DNA of 51,627 bases from Escherichia phage tonijn. Position numbers and translations under genes: made by a program. The stretch is taken from sequence record NC_049818.1; one strand, given 5' to 3'. The notes under the pieces are model-generated. The model did no database searches. It was not told the origin of the DNA and saw nothing but the letters and a program-made list of their open reading frames with translations. This document shows positions 583 through 46,025 of the stretch, in pieces. Position 1 is the stretch's first letter; each line of letters begins with the position of its first letter.

Positions 583-640
583 TGCACGTTTAACAAAAAG
601 TGCTATCATCTAGGCCGTTACATTTAACGGCCTTTTTTAT
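583..640 (+). promoter_or_regulatory. Capsid gene upstream region: TTGCAC-N16-TGcTATCAT (the 20-bp element in reverse orientation supplies a TGn extended -10), then hairpin plus T-tract
   Basis: Element 589-606 read as TTTAACAAAAAGTGCTAT; hairpin ggccgttacatttaacggcc 613-632, T6 633-638; RBS GGAGG 641-645. Confidence 0.4.
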
Positions 641-4302: not shown

Positions 4303-4374
4303 ATTCCTGTAAAATCAATCTATCAAATAAATCAATTCCACTTTTAACAAAAAGTGCTATAAGGAGATCTTGAG

Positions 4375-14797: not shown

Positions 14798-15065
14798 TTT
14801 TGCACCTCAAATCAATGAATTTTCTTTCATCTTGCCAACGGTTGATAAATTTAACTTCTTTATTGTCAACGCTCAACCTGTATTGCTTTTGGCTGAATCT
14901 GTTTTCGCGGACCGCATTAATTTTAACTTCATGGAATCCGTTAACAGGGAATGTTTTAACGTTAAATTTTGCCGTGCAATCGATCTCCTTGAAGTTGCCA
15001 GTAGGCGAAGAAGAACATCCGGTCAGGGCGGCTACGGTGGCGATAACTGCGATTAATTTTTTCAT
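14790..15065 (-). CDS. Lipoprotein, candidate superinfection-exclusion protein (Cor/Llp-like)
   Basis: ATG 15063-15065 after AAGGAG; signal peptide with lipobox LTGC (MKKLIAVIATVAALTGCSS); position next to tail fiber genes. Confidence 0.5.
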   Translation of the reverse strand: MKKLIAVIATVAALTGCSSSPTGNFKEIDCTAKFNVKTFPVNGFHEVKINAVRENRFSQKQYRLSVDNKEVKFINRWQDERKFIDLRCKNG

Positions 15066-15097
15066 CTTCAATACTCCTTAGTTGTTGTTGGCTGTAA

Positions 15098-15140
15098 CTA
15101 TACACGATCCGGCAAGCCGAGTTTAGCAAAAAGTGCTACT
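15098..15140 (-). promoter_or_regulatory. Conserved 20-bp element plus TATAGT -10, oriented to drive the lipoprotein cassette
   Basis: The - strand reads TAGCACTTTTTGCTAAAC, 18 nt, then TATAGT, then AAGGAG RBS. Confidence 0.45.
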
Positions 15141-15508
15141 TGTTATTTTTTGTTTTCCGGTGTTATCGGATTTAAGGCGGCGTAAATTTAGCGCAAATTT
15201 TAGCCAACATAAGAACAATAAATAATCAATAAAATAGGTATATACATATAAAATCAATAGTTTATTTATTTATGTATGTGTATTTGTTTTTTCTTGTTAT
15301 CTGTGTTTCTTGTGGTTTTGGTTGTTTGTGGTGATTTTTCTTTCTGAGTATCTGTATGTGCCATCATTCATGTGTATGTATATAATCCGGCGTATCTGAG
15401 AGAACGAGGGAACAAGAAAAATAACACATATTAATCATTAACTTACGCGTCAAATTTGTTTTATTGCCATCTGAGAACGTTTAGAAAACAGAAAAAACAA
15501 AACAACTA

Positions 15509-15536
15509 TTGACTAAATCAACCAAATGGCTACAAT
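15509..15536 (+). promoter_or_regulatory. Sigma70-type promoter (TTGACT-N16-TACAAT) for the recombination operon
   Basis: TTGACT 15509-15514, TACAAT 15531-15536, RBS GAGGAG 15553-15558, ATG 15567. Confidence 0.6.
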
Positions 15537-15566
15537 GCACACACAAAGCAACGAGGAGCATTAAAG

Positions 15567-16622
15567 ATGAGTGATTTTAACGCCTATACTAGCGAAGAAA
15601 TGAGCAATGAGCTTTATCATGATCCTAACGCGTGGACGGCTGAATACGTCAGCGGTTCCAGCCTGGCGGAGATTTACAGCACTTGCCCTGCGTACTGGAA
15701 GTACAAGCCTCGCCAGGAAACCAAAGCACTTGTTTTCGGTACGCAGTCGCATACCAATTTTGAAAGCAAGGAGTTATTCGAAAAAACATATCGCCGCGCA
15801 CCGTCGCAGGATGATTTTAAAGATCTGATCACAAGTCAAACGGCGTTGGCCTCAAAGCTGAAATCTTTTGGCCTGAAAGGTACAACGGGTAAGCAATACC
15901 CTGAATTGCTGGAAATGCTGTACAAGTGCGGTGAGGATCTCAATGTGTGGTGGCTTATCGAAATGATGGCAGAATGCCAGGCCGCAGCGGACGGCGTGCA
16001 GCTAATCGACGCGAAAGATTATGATGCCTGTGTAGCGATGCGGCGCGTACTTGAGGCAATACCTGAGCATAATGCTTGCATGAATAGCCCAACCGCGCAG
16101 CGTGAAATGTCAATATTCGGGATCATCAATGGCGTAAAAGTTAAAGTGCGCCTTGATCACGTTGACGTAAACAAGGATGTAAAGGCCACAATCATTAACG
16201 GTTACGACGAAAAAGGCCGACCGATTTATGAAGAAGTCATCTATCCAGAAGCTGTGATTATCACTGACTATAAAACAACGGTTAGCGCAAATCCGGTTGA
16301 CTTCCAGCGCCTGGCTTACAATCACGGCTATTATCTCAAAATGGCTTTGCAGCATGATTTATTTAAAAAGGCGTATCCAGACGAGGAAAGGCCAGTAATT
16401 GTGAGATTGCTTGCTCAAGAGAAGAAAGAGCCTTACTTGCCGCTCGCATTCCGCATGAACATTGAGCAATTGAAGATTGGGCGTATCCAGTACATGAGCG
16501 TGATCAATAAGTTCAATGTTTGCCAGAAGTTAGATGAATGGCCTTCGTATGCAAACGGACAACCAGAAATTGATCTGGATACTCCTGATTGGGTGCGCGC
16601 TCAATTCAGGCAGTATCTATAA
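15567..16622 (+). CDS. PD-(D/E)XK-type recombination exonuclease (putative)
   Basis: 351 aa; VIITDYKTT motif consistent with a D-x-K nuclease core; first gene of the exonuclease-Erf-SSB module. Confidence 0.5.
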   Translation: MSDFNAYTSEEMSNELYHDPNAWTAEYVSGSSLAEIYSTCPAYWKYKPRQETKALVFGTQSHTNFESKELFEKTYRRAPSQDDFKDLITSQTALASKLKSFGLKGTTGKQYPELLEMLYKCGEDLNVWWLIEMMAECQAAADGVQLIDAKDYDACVAMRRVLEAIPEHNACMNSPTAQREMSIFGIINGVKVKVRLDHVDVNKDVKATIINGYDEKGRPIYEEVIYPEAVIITDYKTTVSANPVDFQRLAYNHGYYLKMALQHDLFKKAYPDEERPVIVRLLAQEKKEPYLPLAFRMNIEQLKIGRIQYMSVINKFNVCQKLDEWPSYANGQPEIDLDTPDWVRAQFRQYL

Positions 16623-21973: not shown

Positions 21974-22450
21974 TTAGCTATTCGTGCTGTTATCACCTTT
22001 GTAGAATCGTCCGCCTGGTTCGTAGTCTGAATTTTTGACTACGCGCAACATTTCGTATTTGTCGCAACGGGTAGTAAGAGGCTTGCCGTTAGAATCAAAC
22101 CGCAGATCTGGACGACAAAACGAGGCGCGGTATCCTTTGCATCCATTATATTTGTAGTCGTTATGCACCTTTTGTGCTCCAGCGGCTGAAATCATACCAC
22201 GCTTTCGCCATTGGTTAACAACTTGCTGAGATACGCGCAGACGTCGAGCCATAGCAGGAACGCCGCCGTAATACTCGATCAGAATGTCAAGGCGAGATTT
22301 CAGGCTTGCTTTTACCTCATCTCGCAGGATAAGAAATCCGGTTCGGTGTTTTCGTGGCTTTTTGTCTTTACCTCGTCGCGTTCCGTTGTTACCGTTAATA
22401 GTGCGCTTGTCGATCTCACCCGTAGACACTGCAATTCGTGCATCTTTCAT
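21974..22450 (-). CDS. Putative DNA-binding protein (HTH) with basic N-terminal region
   Basis: 158 aa; segment GGVPAMARRLRVSQQVVNQWRKRGMIS resembles a Cro/YdaS-type helix-turn-helix. Confidence 0.5.
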   Translation of the reverse strand: MKDARIAVSTGEIDKRTINGNNGTRRGKDKKPRKHRTGFLILRDEVKASLKSRLDILIEYYGGVPAMARRLRVSQQVVNQWRKRGMISAAGAQKVHNDYKYNGCKGYRASFCRPDLRFDSNGKPLTTRCDKYEMLRVVKNSDYEPGGRFYKGDNSTNS

Positions 22451-26098: not shown

Positions 26099-26278
26099 AT
26101 GGTGGTATTCGATAAACGCGCTTTTAATCTTGCTCAAGAAGTAGCAAAAGGTTCAGTGGATGGCGGTTCAAAGGAAGGGTTCCAGTTTGATTGGGAGATC
26201 GCAATGTTTTTACTGAAAGTTGCATACGGTCACGCGCCAATTGAACAAGCGGAGGCATATTATAAGCATGAAGGTTGA
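26099..26278 (+). CDS. Small hypothetical protein (59 aa), below the ORF-track size cutoff
   Basis: ATG 26099 with GAGG 26086-26089 downstream of the element/-10; stop TGA 26276-26278. Confidence 0.4.
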   Translation: MVVFDKRAFNLAQEVAKGSVDGGSKEGFQFDWEIAMFLLKVAYGHAPIEQAEAYYKHEG

Positions 26279-35314: not shown

Positions 35315-35524
35315 TCAGATACGCCCATACAGATCACAGACTTCGTTGATAAAATTGCTTTGCGCCCCTTTGTTGTCACGCTCAAGAATTGCGCGGCATT
35401 CAAACTTATGATTATGCACGATGACTACAACCATGTTTTCAGGCATTGAGCGGTTATAGCGTTGCGCATCACTGATTGAAACATCCATACCCATCTCATG
35501 TGCTTTCTTGATCACATCCAACAT
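35315..35524 (-). CDS. Hypothetical protein, paralog of 35512..35778
   Basis: Start at ATG (MLDVIKK); shares the motif FIN(D/E)VC(L/D)L with the upstream gene. Confidence 0.45.
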   Translation of the reverse strand: MLDVIKKAHEMGMDVSISDAQRYNRSMPENMVVVIVHNHKFECRAILERDNKGAQSNFINEVCDLYGRI

Positions 35525-35778
35525 TTTTTCTTCTCCTGCAATAAGCAAACATCATTGATAAAATCAGCACGGCCCTTAATGTTGCTGATGTGGAACGTCT
35601 TTTCAGCGTACAGGCCATCACCTTCAATCACGATCATTACGCGAGTCGGTTTATTCACGGGCGCACACGAAAAGAGTGGGCGCACCGGAAGAAATTTAGT
35701 AGCCACATCCAGGTTAGCCCTGGCGGCCCTGCAAAATGCCTCCGCCAGATCCAAATCATTTTCGGTAATCACCGCCAT
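35512..35778 (-). CDS. Hypothetical protein, paralog of 35315..35524
   Basis: 88-aa ORF. Confidence 0.45.
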   Translation of the reverse strand: MAVITENDLDLAEAFCRAARANLDVATKFLPVRPLFSCAPVNKPTRVMIVIEGDGLYAEKTFHISNIKGRADFINDVCLLQEKKKCWM

Positions 35779-36050
35779 TACTTCTTGATCTCCTCACTGA
35801 TAAATTTCAGCACCTGACGCAAGAAAACCTCGTTGTTGATAGTCGCTGGCAATTCTTCTTTCACTTCTTGCGGCAGATAGATATTGCCGTGCCAGGTCAA
35901 GCAATCGTAGTTGATACGATAAGAGCAAAGCCACTCGCAATCGTTATCTGCTTCCCAAATACAGAGTTGCAGAACATCGCCAAAATCTTCAACAGTCAGA
36001 TCCAGACCGTGACGCTTAGCGAAATTGAAAGTGGTTTTGCTGATGTTCAT
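35778..36050 (-). CDS. Hypothetical protein (first gene of the leftward block)
   Basis: 90-aa ORF with AGGAG RBS downstream of the element/-10 at 36085-36130. Confidence 0.5.
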   Translation of the reverse strand: MNISKTTFNFAKRHGLDLTVEDFGDVLQLCIWEADNDCEWLCSYRINYDCLTWHGNIYLPQEVKEELPATINNEVFLRQVLKFISEEIKK

Positions 36051-36084
36051 TGCTATCTCCTGAGCGGTTCGTTTTGATGTGTGT

Positions 36085-36130
36085 AATGTACCCGATCAGG
36101 TGGCCTGAGTTTTAACAAAAAGTGCTATTT
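36085..36130 (-). promoter_or_regulatory. Conserved 20-bp element plus TACATT, driving the leftward block
   Basis: The - strand reads AAATAGCACTTTTTGTTAAAAC, 18 nt, then TACATT. Confidence 0.5.
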
Positions 36131-36159
36131 GACGGTTAGCGCCAGGATTGTGATCGAAA

Positions 36160-36247
36160 TAATCAAAAGTAATCATTCGTAATCAAATCACGTCAAAATG
36201 ATGATTGCCTTTGCAAATTTGATGAGAAAAGTAATCACGATTAATCA
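36160..36247 (+). repeat. Five direct repeats of (G/T)TAATCA with 10-bp phasing; candidate operator/iteron array
   Basis: Copies at 36160, 36169, 36179 (about 10 bp apart) and 36231, 36241. Confidence 0.5.
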
Positions 36248-36683
36248 TTGGTTGCAGGGGAGATAGTGAAACCTTCCCCTCTTGCCTCACTTTTTTGCCT
36301 GGCTGTCAGTGGCTGTTGTCTTTTGTTCACCCCTGTTACCGATTTCAGGCGGCGTGTTTCCGCGCGGTTTTCCGGTGTAGCGAAAACGAAAAAAACAAAA
36401 AAAATCCTATATAATACATTGAAAATAAAGATTATTTATTTATATATATCTATAATGTTTTCTTTTTGTTCTCACTGTTACAGTGCTTTTTGTTGGTTAT
36501 GGTGTGGTTGTGTGTGGGCATATATGGATAGTTGCGCGCGCGGCGGATTGCATATGTATATATACTTTTTCCGGCGGATTGCGTTAACAGCGTGAACAGA
36601 AAAATAACAGCCGCGAAATCAATAACTTGCGCATGATTTTGTAGTTTTTCGATATTGGTAACGTTTTGAATACAACAAAAACA

Positions 36684-36711
36684 TTGACACGCACCAAATA
36701 GCTTTTATAAT
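36684..36711 (+). promoter_or_regulatory. Consensus sigma70 promoter TTGACA-N16-TATAAT for the rightward early block
   Basis: TTGACA 36684-36689 and TATAAT 36706-36711; the track ORF start at 36710 lies inside the -10 and is rejected. Confidence 0.7.
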
Positions 36712-36742
36712 GCGCCAACAGTCAACAACTGGAGGAAAGGAA

Positions 36743-37207
36743 ATGGAACAGAAGACCACTAAGGACTATTGCGATTGGCTTCGCGAGCTTGGTCGCCGCC
36801 TGGCTAGTGGCGATATTGAAGAGTATAAAATGTCACTAATTGACCTGGCCGGAATGTTAAGCGGTGACGACTGCTACAAGATCACGCGCAGTTCATCCTA
36901 CAGCCGGACCATTATCAACCGCGTTCCAGAAGTAAGGGCCGCAGGTCGGGTAAGCATCAAGGTAGAGGAAACGGAAGATGATAAATTTTACGTTTTCCGC
37001 ATGGTCCGAGAATCGAAAAGGAAAATCATCACGCCAGAAGAATTGCCAGCCATCAAGGCAAGGGCGATTAAAAAGTTTGCCGATCGCTTACTGGCAGCAA
37101 TCCCGAACATCGTGGACCTGGAAGGGGATAAACTGGCTGGAGCTTGTGAGGGCGTAAGCCGCTACCAGGATATGATCCGCGAAATCATCAAAGAGGAAGA
37201 GCAATGA
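36743..37207 (+). CDS. Hypothetical early protein
   Basis: ATG 36743 after GGAGGAAAGG; 154 aa. Confidence 0.55.
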   Translation: MEQKTTKDYCDWLRELGRRLASGDIEEYKMSLIDLAGMLSGDDCYKITRSSSYSRTIINRVPEVRAAGRVSIKVEETEDDKFYVFRMVRESKRKIITPEELPAIKARAIKKFADRLLAAIPNIVDLEGDKLAGACEGVSRYQDMIREIIKEEEQ

Positions 37208-37476
37208 AAAAGGCATTAATCAGCGTTTTGGCGGCAATGGCATTCCTGACCGGATGCAAAGAAGATGGCGCGCATGTTGGCAATGTGCAGATGGCTAACC
37301 CTGGCGATGACTACAGCGTAAGGGAGCTATTCACCGCCGATGGTTGCACTGTTTACCGATTCTATGACGGTCGCACTGTTTACTTCACCAACTGCAAGGG
37401 AACGACTAGCTGGGAAGTGTCGAAAAGCAACGGCAAAGGCACGAAAACAGAATACATGACCGTTGAGACAAAATAG
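37204..37476 (+). CDS. Lipoprotein
   Basis: Signal peptide plus lipobox (MKKALISVLAAMAFLTGCKE). Confidence 0.55.
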   Translation: MKKALISVLAAMAFLTGCKEDGAHVGNVQMANPGDDYSVRELFTADGCTVYRFYDGRTVYFTNCKGTTSWEVSKSNGKGTKTEYMTVETK

Positions 37477-42151: not shown

Positions 42152-42532
42152 ATGGTTAACATTCGAAAAATCCGCGTCGGCACTAAATTCTTAGTTACTT
42201 ACGCAATTCCAGATAGCGGAATGAAGAAGGGCCAGATTGTTAAGGTTGATAGCAAAAGGTTCGGAATCCCTGGTATCAATGGCTATCTAATCAATAGAGA
42301 TCTTGGATTCGACGGCTTCGCTATCCGTGCGCTTGAGGGTATTGTTGCCACTCTTAAGCGAATCACTAATCATCGCGGTTGTCCAATCAAGACGATTAAA
42401 GCGCCAGTAAATTACGGCAAACTGGATAATCGTCGAATCCGCCGCCTGGCGCGTAACGCGTTAAAATTCCGTGGCGTAGGCGATGATTTCTACTATGGAT
42501 ACAAGAGGATTGCGCGCAATGCTGGGAAATAA
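42152..42532 (+). CDS. Hypothetical protein
   Basis: 126-aa ORF. Confidence 0.5.
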   Translation: MVNIRKIRVGTKFLVTYAIPDSGMKKGQIVKVDSKRFGIPGINGYLINRDLGFDGFAIRALEGIVATLKRITNHRGCPIKTIKAPVNYGKLDNRRIRRLARNALKFRGVGDDFYYGYKRIARNAGK

Positions 42533-42631
42533 CAATAACGCAACGAATCCTAAGCCACCTTTTGATTTTCATTCCGCAATGATTGCGGTATTATCAATGC
42601 TACTTTTTCTTTATAGCATGAGGGCGCTACT

Positions 42632-42880
42632 ATGGTTTTTAACGCATTGAAACGACTGTTTAAGCCGGAATACCGGATCGTATTTTGCCGCGACTGTTCT
42701 ACTTATCATGTGCAGCGACGCAGCTTAGGCGGCAATTGGCACTATGTTACAGATGACTTTTTCGGCATCATTGCCACTGAATTTAAGTATTACAGTGATG
42801 CTTATATGTACGTGAAGAAGCGCCACCGCTTACGCAAGTGTCGTTTTTCCGTGCTGATTCACGTTAATGATTGTTACTGA
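42632..42880 (+). CDS. Hypothetical Cys-containing protein
   Basis: 82-aa ORF with GAGG RBS. Confidence 0.45.
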   Translation: MVFNALKRLFKPEYRIVFCRDCSTYHVQRRSLGGNWHYVTDDFFGIIATEFKYYSDAYMYVKKRHRLRKCRFSVLIHVNDCY

Positions 42881-42887
42881 GGTGAAA

Positions 42888-43070
42888 ATGAAAACTTGTA
42901 TTATTATTCTTTTCCTGATCCTTTTCGGTAGCCATTTAACCATTAACTATGAGGGCATTATGGCCTTTTGGGGCAACTTGATGGTTTTTGCCGCTGGTTC
43001 AATTACTGGCTACTCTGACGGGAAAAAGGACGGCGTTCGCAAGATGCTGATGGGACTTAAACAAAAATAA
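42888..43070 (+). CDS. Small membrane protein
   Basis: Start at an internal ATG after GAGGTGAAA; hydrophobic N-terminus. Confidence 0.4.
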   Translation: MKTCIIILFLILFGSHLTINYEGIMAFWGNLMVFAAGSITGYSDGKKDGVRKMLMGLKQK

Positions 43071-43081
43071 GGGGATCTGAA

Positions 43082-43372
43082 ATGGCAAACAAAACTTACC
43101 GCAAACTACTGGTTAACGCTTTTGAAAACATTGCGCAGTGTAACAAGTGGAACGACTCTAAACACTCGCCAGTCACAATGAAGCGCGCCGGATTCAAAAA
43201 TGCTCGTTCATGGGCGCGAGCTTTCGCAGCTTGCTATATGCCGGATGGTGGTCTAGGAACGATGAACGATTTTTTGATCAACATGATAGAGGAAGCGGCG
43301 CGAGAGGATCGACCGCTGACACAGCGAGATTTTGACGACTTCGCGCGCGATGAGCTTTACTATCTGAGCTAA
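43082..43372 (+). CDS. Hypothetical protein
   Basis: 96-aa ORF; stop embedded in the element. Confidence 0.5.
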   Translation: MANKTYRKLLVNAFENIAQCNKWNDSKHSPVTMKRAGFKNARSWARAFAACYMPDGGLGTMNDFLINMIEEAAREDRPLTQRDFDDFARDELYYLS

Positions 43373-43421
43373 TAGCACTTTTTGTTAAAACTTCCGCAAG
43401 GGCATTTGATAAAGTGCCCTT
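43370..43421 (+). promoter_or_regulatory. Conserved 20-bp element plus hairpin
   Basis: TAATAGCACTTTTTGTTAAAAC 43370-43391; hairpin aagggcatttgataaagtgccctt. Confidence 0.45.
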
Positions 43422-43447
43422 ATTGAAGCGAAACAGAGGAAAGCGCA

Positions 43448-43660
43448 ATGAAAATCAAAATCACCAAAATCGACACCATCAACGGCGACGGATCAATCAC
43501 TCTTGAGCAATGCGGTTTGGTTGTTGGTGATGTACTGGAAGTTGATGGACATTTCAGCGACGGATCTTATTGTGTTATTGCGCCGCGTAACAGCGAGTTT
43601 ATCAAGGCTGGCGACAATATTAGTGTTAACCATGACGAATGCGAGGTAGTAGAAGAATGA
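43448..43660 (+). CDS. Hypothetical protein
   Basis: 70-aa ORF. Confidence 0.45.
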   Translation: MKIKITKIDTINGDGSITLEQCGLVVGDVLEVDGHFSDGSYCVIAPRNSEFIKAGDNISVNHDECEVVEE

Positions 43661-43920
43661 TCACGATTAACCTGTCAGAGCAGCAAGCGCGCATTATGTT
43701 GTCGGCCTTCGGTTGGCGAGACAATGACGGTTTACAGGCCACAGTTAAAATTTATGAGCCAGTGGCGCGTGAAGTTTTCAGCCAGCTAGAACACGCATTT
43801 GATCCTGCTGGGACTGAGCAAGCGGAAACTGCCGCATGGTTCGGAGAGAACGGATACAGAGATCAGCAAGTCGAAAACTGGAAGCGCATAAACGAGACTA
43901 TGGAGGAATCAGGTTTATGA
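43657..43920 (+). CDS. Hypothetical acidic protein
   Basis: Start at ATG overlapping the upstream stop; 87 aa. Confidence 0.45.
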   Translation: MITINLSEQQARIMLSAFGWRDNDGLQATVKIYEPVAREVFSQLEHAFDPAGTEQAETAAWFGENGYRDQQVENWKRINETMEESGL

Positions 43921-44231
43921 TTTACATTCACTACTACCAAATAGGAACTAACGAGAACAAAAAAGAGCATCGTTTCATCCACGATGATTTGGACAAGGCA
44001 AAGGCCCAGCAACAGGTTTTAGGCGGCGTCATTCAGGCTTTTGAGCCTGTGGAAGATATTGAGTACCGCGAGCATTTAAAAGATGTTGTTATTGATGAGA
44101 TCTCTTGCTTGATTGATGATATGACAAATCACGGCCCTGGTTCCCCGTGGGAAGATGCAGGATCTGTAACGTGGGATAAGGCCAAAGTTAAGACGCTAAA
44201 CAACTTTCGAGAGATTCTCGACGGTTTTTAA
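43917..44231 (+). CDS. Hypothetical strongly acidic protein
   Basis: 104 aa with about 22 Asp/Glu against about 10 Lys/Arg; start overlaps the upstream stop (ATGA). Confidence 0.45.
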   Translation: MIYIHYYQIGTNENKKEHRFIHDDLDKAKAQQQVLGGVIQAFEPVEDIEYREHLKDVVIDEISCLIDDMTNHGPGSPWEDAGSVTWDKAKVKTLNNFREILDGF

Positions 44232-44301
44232 TTAAAAACGCATAGTCGTTAGAGCGCCTCAATCGCATTCTAACGAGCTATTTTTCTGGTAAGGTGATTT
44301 A

Positions 44302-44430
44302 ATGGATGAGTACAAACAACCTTCGCAGTGGTGCAAAGAGAAGCAAGAAGAGGCACTGGAGCGCGGAGATGTGGAAGAAGCTATGAACTATTTCAAACTT
44401 GCGGAAGAATGGAAGGGGAGAGGATACTGA
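44302..44430 (+). CDS. Small hypothetical protein (42 aa), below the ORF-track cutoff
   Basis: ATG 44302 after AAGGTGA; stop overlaps the next start. Confidence 0.35.
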   Translation: MDEYKQPSQWCKEKQEEALERGDVEEAMNYFKLAEEWKGRGY

Positions 44431-44660
44431 TGTTCGGCATGAATGAGGCGCAATTCAACGCAGCTAAACGCCAGGCTAAAAAGTGCGGCGAGGCGATGAA
44501 AGCGGATGTGGAAAAGCGCGGGAAGTATGTTGATGAAGTAATGAAGGGCATCATTGCAGAACACTACCAGCCAATCGCGCCAATGTTGACGATCACTCAA
44601 TTCATTTGGCTATGTGGTTACTTGCGTGGACGTTGGGGGAACGCTTTCGACAGGGAATGA
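44430..44660 (+). CDS. Hypothetical protein
   Basis: Start at an internal ATG of track ORF 44328..44660; 76 aa. Confidence 0.45.
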   Translation: MFGMNEAQFNAAKRQAKKCGEAMKADVEKRGKYVDEVMKGIIAEHYQPIAPMLTITQFIWLCGYLRGRWGNAFDRE

Positions 44661-44822
44661 TTGACAACTATTTCCTGATTGGTTAGCATGGCGTCGTTTA
44701 CATAAGAGCGGCTTAGTCCGAACGCGTGACGCGATAGTCACACAACAACGGCGATATGCAGGAGGTTTTTGCAACGCAAAATAATCCATAAGACGTATCG
44801 CCTTTTTTAATGGAGATCCAAA

Positions 44823-45056
44823 ATGATTAAATACAAATTAACAGTTTCTTTCCGTGATACCGTTATTCATCCTTTCTACAATAGCTTTGTTAACAGCTTT
44901 ACGGTAGAGGCGACAGAGGATCAGCTAGACGGTGACGAAACTTGCATTTCTATTGGAAATGTTGCTTACCCGATTCACAACATTACCAGCATTAAGCGTG
45001 AGGTTGTCGCTGATGAATTACAAAGTGAAGATGACGATCCGGCGAATGGGGCGTAA
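44823..45056 (+). CDS. Hypothetical protein
   Basis: 77-aa ORF; candidate promoter TTGACA (44661-44666) upstream. Confidence 0.45.
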   Translation: MIKYKLTVSFRDTVIHPFYNSFVNSFTVEATEDQLDGDETCISIGNVAYPIHNITSIKREVVADELQSEDDDPANGA

Positions 45057-45198
45057 TTGCCAATCATGCAAACAGGAATATGAATGCGTAGTTGATGCTC
45101 TTGATGAACTGGAAGCAGTAGCAAAAGCAAAAGAGCAATCGGGCGCTAATCCTGAAACACATCAATTTTCAATTAACCTTGTGAGGGCTTTACAATGA
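45013..45198 (+). CDS. Hypothetical Cys-rich small protein (start uncertain)
   Basis: Internal ATG with GAGG RBS in track ORF 44932..45198; overlaps the end of the upstream gene. Confidence 0.3.
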   Translation: MNYKVKMTIRRMGRNCQSCKQEYECVVDALDELEAVAKAKEQSGANPETHQFSINLVRALQ

Positions 45199-45419
45199 TC
45201 GCATTATCTTTCTGCATTGGTTTTATCATGGCTATCATTATCTTTTCCGTTGTCATGCGCTTTGCTTATAAGTTCGTGATTAATAAAGGTTGGTACGCTT
45301 CTGCAATCTGGAGCGAAAAACAAAAGAAATGGCTTGTACGTGGTCAATACCTGATGATCGGTAGCAAGATCCTAAATTCCATTCGAGCCAAAGATGGGAA
45401 AGTAAAATATACAGCTTAA
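45195..45419 (+). CDS. Small membrane protein
   Basis: 74 aa with N-terminal TM segment; followed by a strong terminator. Confidence 0.45.
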   Translation: MIALSFCIGFIMAIIIFSVVMRFAYKFVINKGWYASAIWSEKQKKWLVRGQYLMIGSKILNSIRAKDGKVKYTA

Positions 45420-45422
45420 AAA

Positions 45423-45469
45423 TCACCCGCCGAACGGCGGGTTTTTTATTGCCCGTTGTTTGGTATAAT
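45423..45469 (+). promoter_or_regulatory. Terminator hairpin followed by an extended -10 promoter (TGgTATAAT) for the terminase operon
   Basis: Hairpin cacccgccgaacggcgggtt plus T-tract 45424-45447; TG 45461-45462 and TATAAT 45464-45469; RBS AAGGAGG. Confidence 0.55.
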
Positions 45470-45497
45470 CAGGCATCTAACAAAAGGAGGATTAACA

Positions 45498-46025
45498 ATG
45501 GCTAAAAACGTTGAGCCTGCTGTAAAGGCATTAAATTTCAAAGAGTTATACAATAAAACTTATGGCGATATTGTTACGCTAAACAACCGCCACAAGTACA
45601 CGCCGGAACAGGTTTTTGATATGGCGATCCGCTATTTCACTTGGGCCGAAGAGAATCACATCCAGGCGGCTGAAACTGCTTCCTTTCAGGGTGACGTGTA
45701 CGAGAGCAGAGTTTACAAGCCTCGCGTTTTCACGGTTAACGGATTCAGCTTGTATCTCGGCGTGACTGAGGCAGCCGTAAGCAAATGGCGTAAAGAGCCT
45801 GGATTCTGCGATGTGATGGAGTTTGTTGATAAAGTAATTTACGAGCAAAAATTCCAGCTTGCGGCAAATAACATGATTAACGCTGGATTTATCGGTAAAG
45901 AGATCGGAGTAGAGAAGCCAGCAACAGTGAGCGTTGAAGCGAGCGCGGCAGCTAATGCAAGCATTGACGCAGTAACTGCCGATGAGGTGAAAGAGGCTGT
46001 GATTGATATTCTGGAGCAACTTTAA
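45498..46025 (+). CDS. Terminase small subunit
   Basis: ATG 45498 after AAAAGGAGG; 175 aa immediately upstream of the large terminase gene. Confidence 0.55.
   Translation: MAKNVEPAVKALNFKELYNKTYGDIVTLNNRHKYTPEQVFDMAIRYFTWAEENHIQAAETASFQGDVYESRVYKPRVFTVNGFSLYLGVTEAAVSKWRKEPGFCDVMEFVDKVIYEQKFQLAANNMINAGFIGKEIGVEKPATVSVEASAAANASIDAVTADEVKEAVIDILEQL

What the first reader, a model, noticed from the sequence alone, without database searches (positions are those of the whole stretch)
36130..36742. Divergent control region B: phased TAATCA repeat array followed by a perfect consensus promoter
Five direct (G/T)TAATCA repeats sit at 36160, 36169, 36179, 36231 and 36241; the first three and the last two are phased at about 10 bp, so they lie on one helical face, as expected for cooperative protein binding (operator, iteron or IHF/Fis-like array). 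Downstream is the GT-rich block and then TTGACA-N16-TATAAT (36684-36711), the strongest sigma70 match in the window, driving the rightward early block. Two AATCAAT copies (about 15224 and 15252) and a TTAATCATT (15431-15439) occur in region A. The binding protein is unknown.
Basis: seen in the sequence. Interest (0 to 1): 0.6.

Follow-up and report, generated by a model that had tools for sequence, protein, structure and literature searches.

The report
Phased TAATCA repeats beside the packaging start
A T1-like coliphage carries five conserved TAATCA repeats, one per DNA helical turn, on strongly curved DNA. They sit right next to where related phages start packaging their genome, so they are more likely part of the still-undefined T1-type packaging signal than a switch for the distant consensus promoter.

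Summary
TAATCA occurs exactly at 36160, 36170, 36180, 36232 and 36242, a cluster never reached in 300 simulations. TTGACA-N16-TATAAT at 36684-36711 is the only perfect sigma-70 match in the window.

The window is a Warwickvirus (Drexlerviridae, T1-like) genome. The 693-bp gap is the T1-type terminal untranslated region, where the literature places pac.

Control regions A and B are collinear paralogous modules. B differs by one 184-nt insertion (36131-36314) that holds the array plus a unique GTTGCAGGGG/G-rich box. BEBK14 shows the same layout.

Termini from relatives (T1 position 1, TLS position 1, the MSK PhageTerm terminus, four record ends) project to about 36250-36275, just right of the array.

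In 16 clade members the AATCA cores never vary and the array has no indels. The array also has the strongest helical A-tract phasing in the genome.

Best reading (confidence about 0.4): a curved, small-terminase (TerS)-wrapping arm of a pac cassette, analogous to SPP1 pacL or the P1 pac hexamers. No binding protein is shown. TerS covariation is inconclusive and partly contradicted.

Rivals are an upstream element of the leftward early promoter, origin iterons, or neutral duplication. Moderate interest.

The parts
36110..36128 (-). 21-nt Drexlerviridae repeat element ATAGCACTTTTTGTTAAAA. It is UP-element-like and lies upstream of the leftward gene 35778-36050. It forms the left border of the cassette.
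   Evidence: One of 20 copies in the window (0.31 expected). It matches the TLS repeat consensus aaATAGCACnnnTTGnTAAAA (PMC11447400). It is conserved at this position in all relatives examined.
36131..36314 (.). Cassette specific to region B (array plus GTTGCA/G-box). It appears as a single insertion relative to the paralogous region A.
   Evidence: The A/B alignment shows one 184-nt gap in A. The same insertion is seen in BEBK14.
36150..36190 (+). Repeat cluster 1: TGATCG (36150), TAATCA at 36160, 36170 and 36180 (exact 10-bp period), and AATCA at 36186.
   Evidence: The cores are invariant in 16 clade sequences.
36232..36247 (+). Repeat cluster 2: TAATCA at 36232 and 36242, which is 52 bp (about 5 helical turns) from cluster 1.
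   Evidence: The only variation is T>C at 36232 in 4 of 16 sequences.
36131..36256 (.). Predicted intrinsically curved segment with A-tracts in helical phase.
   Evidence: A-tract periodicity at 10-10.75 bp ranks first among about 10,300 windows of 100 nt in the genome.
36251..36283 (+). GTTGCAGGGGAGATAGTGAAACCTTCCCCT: a unique GTTGCA[TG]GG motif plus a G-rich box/hairpin. This is the projected zone of the pac (first-cut) end.
   Evidence: The motif is unique in the window. T1 position 1 is GTTGCATGGTG. G29-2, haarsle, a PHB17-like contig and P-K7R records break inside the homologous box. The MSK PhageTerm terminus and TLS position 1 lie just after their own arrays.
36340..36743 (+). Module shared with region A: A-rich arm, AT block (about 36405-36455), T/G-rich arm, GAACA/ATAACA repeats, and the early promoter.
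   Evidence: Collinear with 15140-15570 over about 400 columns (234 identical columns). The AT block is the most widely conserved piece across the family.
36684..36711 (+). Perfect sigma-70 promoter TTGACA-N16-TATAAT, upstream of the first rightward gene (start codon 36743; DUF7174 protein).
45498..46025 (+). Small terminase (TerS) of the P22 gp3 family; the candidate binder.
   Evidence: Pfam GP3_package E=4e-11. PDB 3P9A E=1.7e-15. Only 65-69% identical in BEBK14 and PGN590, against 91-93% for the large terminase TerL.
15050..15570 (.). Region A: the paralogous divergent-promoter module, which lacks the cassette.

Best explanation
The TAATCA array is the recognition, protein-wrapping arm of this phage's packaging-initiation (pac) cassette.

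Shown:
- The array (36150-36247) and a unique GTTGCA/G-rich box (36251-36283) form one 184-nt cassette. It is inserted into one of two paralogous divergent-promoter modules.
- The AATCA cores sit one per helical turn on strongly A-tract-phased DNA.
- Cores and spacing are conserved within the clade.

Inferred by projection from relatives:
- The first packaging cut falls at about 36250-36275, immediately right of the array.
- Packaging then runs rightward.

Inferred by analogy with SPP1 pacL and the P1 pac hexamers:
- An oligomeric small terminase (45498-46025, P22 gp3 family), possibly with host bending proteins, binds or wraps the roughly 100-bp curved array.
- This positions the large terminase to cut next to it.
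- Because the array also lies just upstream of the leftward early promoter element, occupancy could also shut that promoter off late in infection.
For: 1. Location. The window is a Warwickvirus. T1-like pac lies in the untranslated region that precedes the small rightward ORFs (PMC7718038). The T1 record's 2.8-kb terminal repeat starts in the homologous region.

2. Termini, all immediately right of the local repeat array:
- MSK PhageTerm forward terminus at 36,862, which is L097 position 1063.
- TLS position 1, with pac mapped by restriction digestion.
- T1 position 1, GTTGCATGG, homologous to the unique GTTGCAGGG at window 36251.
- Four record ends inside the G-box.

3. Uniqueness. The cassette is a single insertion absent from paralogous region A, both here and in BEBK14. 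The RATCA/TGATY density maximum of the whole genome is here.

4. Selection. Hexamer positions are variable at 1/30, against 16/98 in the rest of the array (p=0.054) and 47/224 across the 254-nt span (p=0.011). There are no indels in 16 sequences.

5. Geometry. The 10-bp period and top-ranked A-tract phasing match the SPP1 model of a ring of weak DNA-binding domains spaced one helical turn apart that selects bent pac DNA (PMC4737164). P1 pac has seven TGATCA/G hexamers (PMC10028697).

6. Family pattern. GATT/AATC-core repeats are enriched at this position in 10 of 10 lineages despite complete sequence turnover.

7. Divergence. TerS is much more divergent than TerL. Each of 8 TerS types has its own array.
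Against: - No terminus has been measured in this clade. The cut position is projected from other genera, and some record boundaries may be conventions.
- TerS-array covariation cannot be separated from phylogeny. TerS, the array and the Cro-like HTH gene all define the same 59-record clade.
- T1 and L064 share nearly the same ATTATTCC...TGGAATAATCA array with only 51% TerS identity.
- P22, which has the same TerS family, uses a single 22-bp asymmetric pac, and its HTH is reported to be occluded.
- A-tract phasing is not top-ranked in BEBK14 or PGN590.
- The conservation test rests on 16 related sequences and is only borderline inside the array.
Confidence: 0.4

Rival explanations
1. Upstream regulatory element of the leftward early promoter. 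The curved array lies roughly 65 to 170 bp upstream of the leftward promoter, which sits behind the UP-like ATAGCAC element. It either activates transcription through curvature or serves as an operator for a phage regulator, for example the Cro/YdaS-like HTH protein at 21974-22450.
For: - The array begins 22 nt from the 21-nt element at 36110-36128.
- It has the strongest A-tract phasing in the genome.
- In other lineages this position holds an inverted repeat, ATTATTCCA...TGGAATAAT, typical of dimeric operators. That repeat is conserved between T1 and L064 despite divergent TerS.
- The phage encodes a conserved HTH regulator, PHROG 2856 'transcriptional regulator', whose recognition helix is nearly invariant.
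Against: - The paralogous region A has the same leftward element and promoter module but no array.
- None of the other 19 ATAGCAC elements has such an array, since the genome maximum is unique.
- There is no TAATCA cluster near the HTH gene's own promoter.
- Direct repeats at a 10-bp period do not fit a classical HTH dimer.
Confidence: 0.25
2. Iterons of the still-unidentified replication origin. Phased repeats bind an initiator next to the AT-rich, strand-asymmetric block (36405-36455), which would serve as the unwinding element.
For: - The origin of T1-like phages has not been found.
- The cassette is unique in the genome.
- An AT-rich block flanked by inverted GAACA/TGTTC arms lies about 160 bp away.
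- The DNA is curved.
- The region sits between divergent transcription units.
Against: - The AT-block module is duplicated in region A without any repeats.
- No initiator gene is adjacent.
- No DnaA box is present.
- The units are 6-bp cores at 10-bp spacing rather than typical 17-22-bp iterons.
- The terminus evidence points to packaging.
Confidence: 0.12
3. No specific function. The repeats are a recent slipped-strand amplification of a 10-bp unit (TAATCAnnnn, derived from an ancestral GGAATAATCA) in a hypervariable spacer.
For: - The array is confined to one 59-record clade and is replaced by other sequences in sister lineages.
- The first repeat, GAAATAATCA, resembles GGAATAATCA of T1 and L064.
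- The conservation statistic inside the array is only borderline (p=0.054).
Against: - The AATCA cores are invariant at 25 positions, with no indels in 16 sequences, while flanks and spacers vary.
- A second cluster sits in helical phase 52 bp away.
- GATT/AATC-core arrays recur at this position in every lineage.
Confidence: 0.13
4. An array of sites for a host nucleoid protein (IHF, Fis or H-NS).
For: The DNA is AT-rich and curved. P1 pac and lambda cos use IHF/HU bending.
Against: - None of the five repeats fits WATCARNNNNTTR. The full IHF matches lie elsewhere, at 36617 and 15252.
- A host factor would not explain the lineage-specific turnover of the repeats.
Confidence: 0.07

Closest known systems
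Bacillus phage SPP1/SF6 pac (pacL boxes A/B, pacC cut, pacR)
   Same: Direct repeats sit about one helical turn apart on intrinsically bent DNA and span about 100 bp. They lie next to the first-cut site and overlap a promoter region. In the SPP1 model, a ring of small-terminase DNA-binding domains selects bent DNA (PMC4737164).
   Different: The TerS family differs (P22 gp3-like here). Here pac lies about 9 kb upstream of terS rather than at it. No pacR-like second arm was identified. Binding is untested.
Phage P1 pac (seven TGATCA/G hexamers flanking the cut; PacA/PacB plus IHF/HU)
   Same: Both have clusters of a 6-bp repeat with an ATCA core (3-4 copies plus 2 here, 4 plus 3 in P1) within about 100-160 bp of the cut. 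One in-phase copy here (TGATCG, 36150) carries a GATC site, and the phage encodes a Dam-type methylase.
   Different: The TAATCA copies lack GATC, so Dam control cannot act on them. Both clusters lie on one side of the projected cut. The terminase is unrelated.
Phage P22 pac (22-bp asymmetric site inside gene 3)
   Same: Same TerS family (GP3_package; 3P9A E=1.7e-15) and the same headful packaging mode. The TLS authors assigned pac by resemblance to P22's AGATTT.
   Different: The P22 site is single, has no repeat array, and lies inside terS. Here there is a repeat array in a noncoding region 9 kb away.
Earlier proposals for T1-like pac
   Same: The same untranslated region: five ATATA repeats in T1 (Wietzorrek 2006, as cited in PMC8421802) and AGATTT in TLS.
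   Different: The ATATA/AT block is duplicated in region A, so it cannot by itself specify pac. The B-specific cassette proposed here has not been described in the papers I could read.
Iteron origins (for example lambda ori: four 18-bp iterons plus an AT-rich region)
   Same: Phased direct repeats, bent DNA, and an AT-rich strand-asymmetric block nearby.
   Different: The cores are short, no initiator gene surrounds or adjoins them, and the AT block is duplicated elsewhere without repeats.

Membership tests
pac site of a headful-packaging phage | Lies at or next to the DNA end made by the first terminase cut | tested here: inconclusive
   Termini of T1, TLS and MSK, plus four record ends, project to 36250-36275. 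No terminus has been measured for this clade.
pac site of a headful-packaging phage | Present once per genome | tested here: met
   The cassette is a single insertion absent from paralogous region A. The RATCA density maximum and GTTGCA[TG]GG are both unique.
pac site of a headful-packaging phage | Bound by the small terminase | not testable with these tools
   Needs EMSA or footprinting with the TerS encoded at 45498-46025.
pac site of a headful-packaging phage | Specificity co-varies with TerS | tested here: inconclusive
   Eight TerS types each have their own array, but the pattern is confounded with phylogeny. T1 and L064 share an array with 51% TerS identity.
pac site of a headful-packaging phage | Sufficient to direct packaging or transduction of foreign DNA | not testable with these tools
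   Needs a plasmid transduction assay.
SPP1-type pacL (bent, repeat-bearing TerS-wrapping arm) | Repeats at helical spacing on intrinsically bent DNA of about 100 bp | tested here: met
   Exact 10-bp period. A-tract phasing ranks first in the genome. Curvature is predicted, not measured.
Iteron replication origin | Iterons adjacent to an AT-rich unwinding element and to, or inside, an initiator gene | tested here: not met
   An AT block lies about 160 bp away but is duplicated in region A without repeats. No initiator gene adjoins the region. No DnaA box is present.
Operator array of the divergent early promoters | Sites overlap or adjoin promoter core elements and recur at co-regulated promoters | tested here: not met
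   The array is about 440 bp from the consensus promoter. It is absent from region A, which has the same promoter module. Its proximity to the leftward element leaves a leftward-only role open.
IHF binding sites | Match to WATCARNNNNTTR | tested here: not met
   None of the five repeats matches. The full matches lie at 36617 and 15252.
Known RNA families | Rfam covariance-model match | tested here: not met
   No match at E<=1 in 35500-37300.

The most novel reading that the evidence does not exclude
The 184-nt cassette 36131-36314 is the long-sought pac signal of T1-like phages. It consists of a lineage-specific, helically phased repeat arm that wraps a P22-gp3-family small terminase, joined to a conserved GTTGCA/G-box cut site. 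Swapping the repeat arm defines packaging-specificity groups within Drexlerviridae. Terminase occupancy also silences the adjacent leftward early promoter, acting as a transcription-to-packaging switch.
Probability: 0.3. Interest if true: 0.55.

Novelty: new member of a known kind. Interest (0 to 1): 0.42.

Why it matters
T1 was one of the founding 'T' phages. T1-like phages are notorious laboratory and fermenter contaminants and are also generalized transducers. Yet their pac site has only been mapped roughly since the 1980s, and their replication origin is unknown.

A defined 184-nt candidate cassette, with a testable repeat arm and cut box, would make several experiments straightforward:
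- pac-plasmid transduction assays;
- engineering packaging specificity for phagemids or T1-based delivery;
- correct genome-end annotation across Drexlerviridae.

It would also add a repeat-array pac to the P22 gp3 terminase family, which is otherwise known for a single 22-bp site.

Tried and rejected
- Rfam scan of 35500-37300: nothing found.
- Similarity search of 36129-36480 against 5,426 E. coli genomes, looking for satellites or islands that mimic the site: no match.
- Co-occurrence of TerS and the array in GenBank: identical 59-record sets. The Cro-like HTH gene gave a 59-record set at >=95% too (membership was not compared by script), so the test does not discriminate.
- Three-genome covariation (window, BEBK14, PGN590): TerS is equally distant in all three pairs. 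Only small proteins of unknown function (26099-26278, 42867-43070) follow the array-type pattern, and they have no DNA-binding annotation.
- The 90-aa neighbour protein (35778-36050) as the binder: rejected. It is 97-100% identical in phages with different arrays.
- IHF and DnaA consensus scans: no match in the array.
- A-tract phasing as a family-wide property: not found in BEBK14 or PGN590.
- A 14-mer scan of IMG/VR returned only random hits and wasted one scan. The 20-mer scans of IMG/VR and of metagenomes added only 3 contigs each.
- A P4-alpha-type iteron idea (TGTTCACC at 36327): the phage has no P4-alpha-like primase-helicase, so I did not pursue it.
- The Roberts 2004 (T1) and Wietzorrek 2006 (Rtp) papers are not held. 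I therefore could not check how T1 position 1 was defined.

Full report
**What the window is.** The 1.6 kb around the finding is 97-99% identical to about 57 coliphage genomes of the genus Warwickvirus (Drexlerviridae, Tempevirinae; T1-like), such as vB_Eco-B1.2, SECphi27, tonnikala and FritzSarasin. The finding lies in a 693-bp gap (36051-36742). On its left is a leftward gene (35778-36050, 90 aa, PHROG 6147, function unknown). On its right is the first gene of a rightward block of small early genes (start 36743, DUF7174).

**The observation.** TAATCA occurs exactly at 36160, 36170, 36180, 36232 and 36242, spaced 10, 10, 52 and 10 bp.
- A degenerate TGATCG lies in phase at 36150, and an extra AATCA at 36186.
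- The whole window has 33 + 21 copies on its two strands.
- Five in 88 bp is the genome maximum, and 300 Markov-1 simulations never gave more than two in 100 bp.
- TTGACA-N16-TATAAT at 36684-36711 is a 12/12 match and the only perfect one in the window.

**Where the region sits in T1-like genomes.** The literature places the T1-type pac site and the start of the terminal redundancy in the untranslated region that precedes the many small rightward ORFs. The genome ends with small leftward ORFs and another untranslated region (PMC7718038).
- The T1 record starts its 2.8-kb terminal repeat inside the homologous gap.
- The replication origin of T1-like phages has not been identified.
- 'Control region B' is thus the junction of the genome ends, not only a promoter region.

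**Anatomy.** Immediately left of the array, on the minus strand, lies ATAGCACTTTTTGTTAAAA (36110-36128). It is one of 20 copies in the window of the 21-nt repeat described for phage TLS (PMC11447400).

Aligning region B with the other divergent region A (15050-15570) shows that the two are collinear paralogous modules.
- They share the leftward 5' region, the ATAGCAC element, an A-rich arm, the AT block, a T/G-rich arm, GAACA/ATAACA repeats and a strong rightward promoter.
- There is one difference: a single 184-nt insertion in B at 36131-36314.
- The insertion holds the TAATCA array and then GTTGCAGGGGAGATAGTGAAACCTTCCCCT. GTTGCA[TG]GG is unique in the window.
- BEBK14, a relative about 70% identical across this gap, shows the same A/B relationship, with an insertion of about 190 nt at the same borders.

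**Physical ends in relatives.**
- The MSK paper reports a PhageTerm forward terminus at 36,862. In the record this lies about 150 nt right of the ATAGCAC element, just after MSK's own repeat array, and about 130 nt left of its AT block. It does not coincide with the Rtp record start, so it is not a numbering convention.
- TLS position 1, where pac was mapped by restriction digestion, starts inside a six-copy GATT array that is followed by a GTGAGTGAGT box.
- The last 100 nt of the T1 record hold an ATAGCAC-like element and an ATTATTCC...TGGAATATCTGGAATAATCA array. Position 1 follows about 35 nt later and reads GTTGCATGGTG, the homologue of window 36251 GTTGCAGGGG (atuna has GTTGCATGGG).
- Records or contigs from four groups break within about 12 nt of one another inside the homologous G-box: G29-2, haarsle, a PHB17-like contig and P-K7R.
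- SU57 position 1 lies about 120 nt left of its AT block.

Together these project the first-cut zone to about 36250-36275 in the window, 3-30 nt right of the last TAATCA, with packaging running rightward. This is an inference. No end has been measured in this clade, and some record boundaries may follow conventions.

**Conservation and physical properties.** I compared 16 sequences of the clade: GenBank, IMG/VR and metagenome members, 96-99% identical.
- Only 1 of 30 hexamer positions varies (T>C at 36232). The comparison values are 16/98 in the rest of the array (one-sided Fisher p=0.054) and 47/224 across the 254-nt span (p=0.011).
- All AATCA cores are invariant, and there are no indels.
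- A-tract periodicity at 10-10.75 bp over 36131-36256 is the highest of about 10,300 windows in the genome. This predicts a strong planar bend.
- That property is not top-ranked in BEBK14 or PGN590.

**Variation across lineages.** The left flank, including the 90-aa gene, stays 94-100% identical in phages whose cassette cannot be aligned. The cassette is therefore a hypervariable island.
- Other lineages carry different repeats at this position. These include ATTATTCC/GGAATAA inverted repeats with TAATCA/TGATTA palindromes (PGN590 group, BEBK14, L064, T1), GATTG arrays (L066, L094, TLS) and TTGCA...TGCAA units (L063, MSK, Rtp).
- A GATT/AATC core is enriched in the first 150 nt after the element in all ten lineages examined: 3-8 RATCA/TGATY in nine and 2 in L063, against 1.26 expected.
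- The window's first repeat, GAAATAATCA, resembles the GGAATAATCA of T1 and L064. The TAATCA triplet therefore looks like an amplification of a 10-bp unit.

**Who binds?**
- TerS (45498-46025) belongs to the P22 gp3 family. It is far more divergent than TerL: 65-69% against 91-93% in BEBK14 and PGN590.
- Fourteen TerS sequences fall into eight types at 46-74% identity. Variation is concentrated in an HTH-like segment, and each type has its own array.
- Three points weaken this case. TerS, the array and the Cro-like HTH gene all define the same 59-record clade. T1 and L064 share almost the same inverted-repeat array with only 51% TerS identity. The P22 HTH is reported to be occluded.
- The Cro/YdaS-like protein (21974-22450) has a nearly invariant recognition helix across phages with different arrays.
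- The small proteins whose divergence pattern matches array type have no recognisable DNA-binding domain.

No binder is established.

**Interpretation.** The best-supported reading, at a confidence of about 0.4, is that the array is the curved, repeat-bearing arm of a pac cassette whose cut site is the adjacent GTTGCA/G-box.
- It is analogous to SPP1 pacL. There, direct repeats one helical turn apart on bent DNA are selected by a ring of weak small-terminase DNA-binding domains, and the site overlaps promoters (PMC4737164).
- It is also analogous to the seven TGATCA/G hexamers of P1 pac (PMC10028697).
- Uniqueness in the genome, absence from paralogous region A, adjacency to the projected ends, core conservation and helical phasing all fit this reading.

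Rival readings:
- An upstream curved element or operator of the leftward early promoter only. The inverted-repeat form in other lineages and its independence from TerS type favour this.
- Origin iterons. These cannot be excluded, because the origin is unknown. However, the AT block is duplicated without repeats, and there is no initiator gene or DnaA box.
- Neutral duplication in a hypervariable spacer.
- Host IHF or Fis sites. No IHF consensus falls in the array.

The protein-binding idea is reasonable. The link to the consensus promoter 440 bp away, the link to region A and the IHF suggestion are not supported.

**Novelty.** In the papers I could read, T1-like pac has been guessed to be five ATATA repeats or AGATTT. 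The B-specific cassette has not been described. If confirmed, it would be a new member of the known class of repeat-bearing pac sites, in a terminase family otherwise known for a single 22-bp site. Interest is moderate.

Noticed in passing
window 588-606 (-), 4342-4360 (-), and 18 further sites: The 21-nt element ATAGCACTTTTTGTTAAAA occurs 20 times (0.31 expected). Two copies lie antisense to the + strand structural genes. That does not fit the published statement that these repeats always point in the direction of transcription.
   Followed up: partly
window 15050-15570 versus 36040-36745: The two divergent intergenic regions are collinear paralogous modules of about 400-500 bp: ATAGCAC element, A-rich arm, AT block, T/G-rich arm, GAACA/ATAACA repeats and a strong promoter. 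The module's function is unknown. It could be a promoter-upstream structure or a pair of origins.
   Followed up: partly
L006 1-11 (T1 position 1); L239/L238 lambda 27165 and 39900: T1's terminal 11-mer GTTGCATGGTG occurs twice in lambda 1-44600 (about 0.02 expected). One copy lies in gene P and points towards Q. From memory, and unverified, T1 was reported to initiate packaging on lambda DNA between P and Q.
   Followed up: partly
phage records MG0656xx: Fifteen to seventeen GenBank records named 'Campylobacter phage' (host C. jejuni) match this T1-like coliphage region and its TerL at 78-91% identity. They are probably T1-like contaminants or are misassigned.
   Followed up: no
window 36617-36629 and 15252-15264: Each paralogous module has one full IHF consensus match: AATCAATAACTTG in B and AATCAATAGTTTA in A. 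They sit at different relative positions in the two modules.
   Followed up: no
window 36183-36290 (-) and 36248-36595 (+): These ORFs (35 and 115 aa) are annotated as hypothetical proteins in some relatives (G3B1_095, JLBYU07_32). They read through the repeat array, AT block and GT-rich block, are low-complexity, and are not conserved as proteins in atuna or BEBK14. They are probably spurious.
   Followed up: partly
window 45456-46025: The TerS ORF listed from TTG 45456 most likely starts at ATG 45498 (MAKNVEP...). This matches the BASEL annotations and the alignment of 14 TerS sequences. The 42152-45419 block just upstream is even more divergent between lineages than TerS.
   Followed up: partly
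window 36327-36334, 36456-36480/36585-36609: TGTTCAC, TGTTAC and ATAACA motifs form nested inverted repeats around the AT block; the 36456-36480/36585-36609 arm pair is 80% complementary over 25 nt. In 2019SD1 (L062) the equivalent stretch has four direct CTGTTAT repeats plus inverted ATAACA repeats. No binder is known.
   Followed up: no
L059 (IMGVR_UViG_3300045988_040344), first 470 nt right of the 90-aa gene: This relative has an extra leftward gene, with its own second ATAGCAC element, inserted between the 90-aa gene and the cassette. The order element-array-G-box is still preserved.
   Followed up: partly
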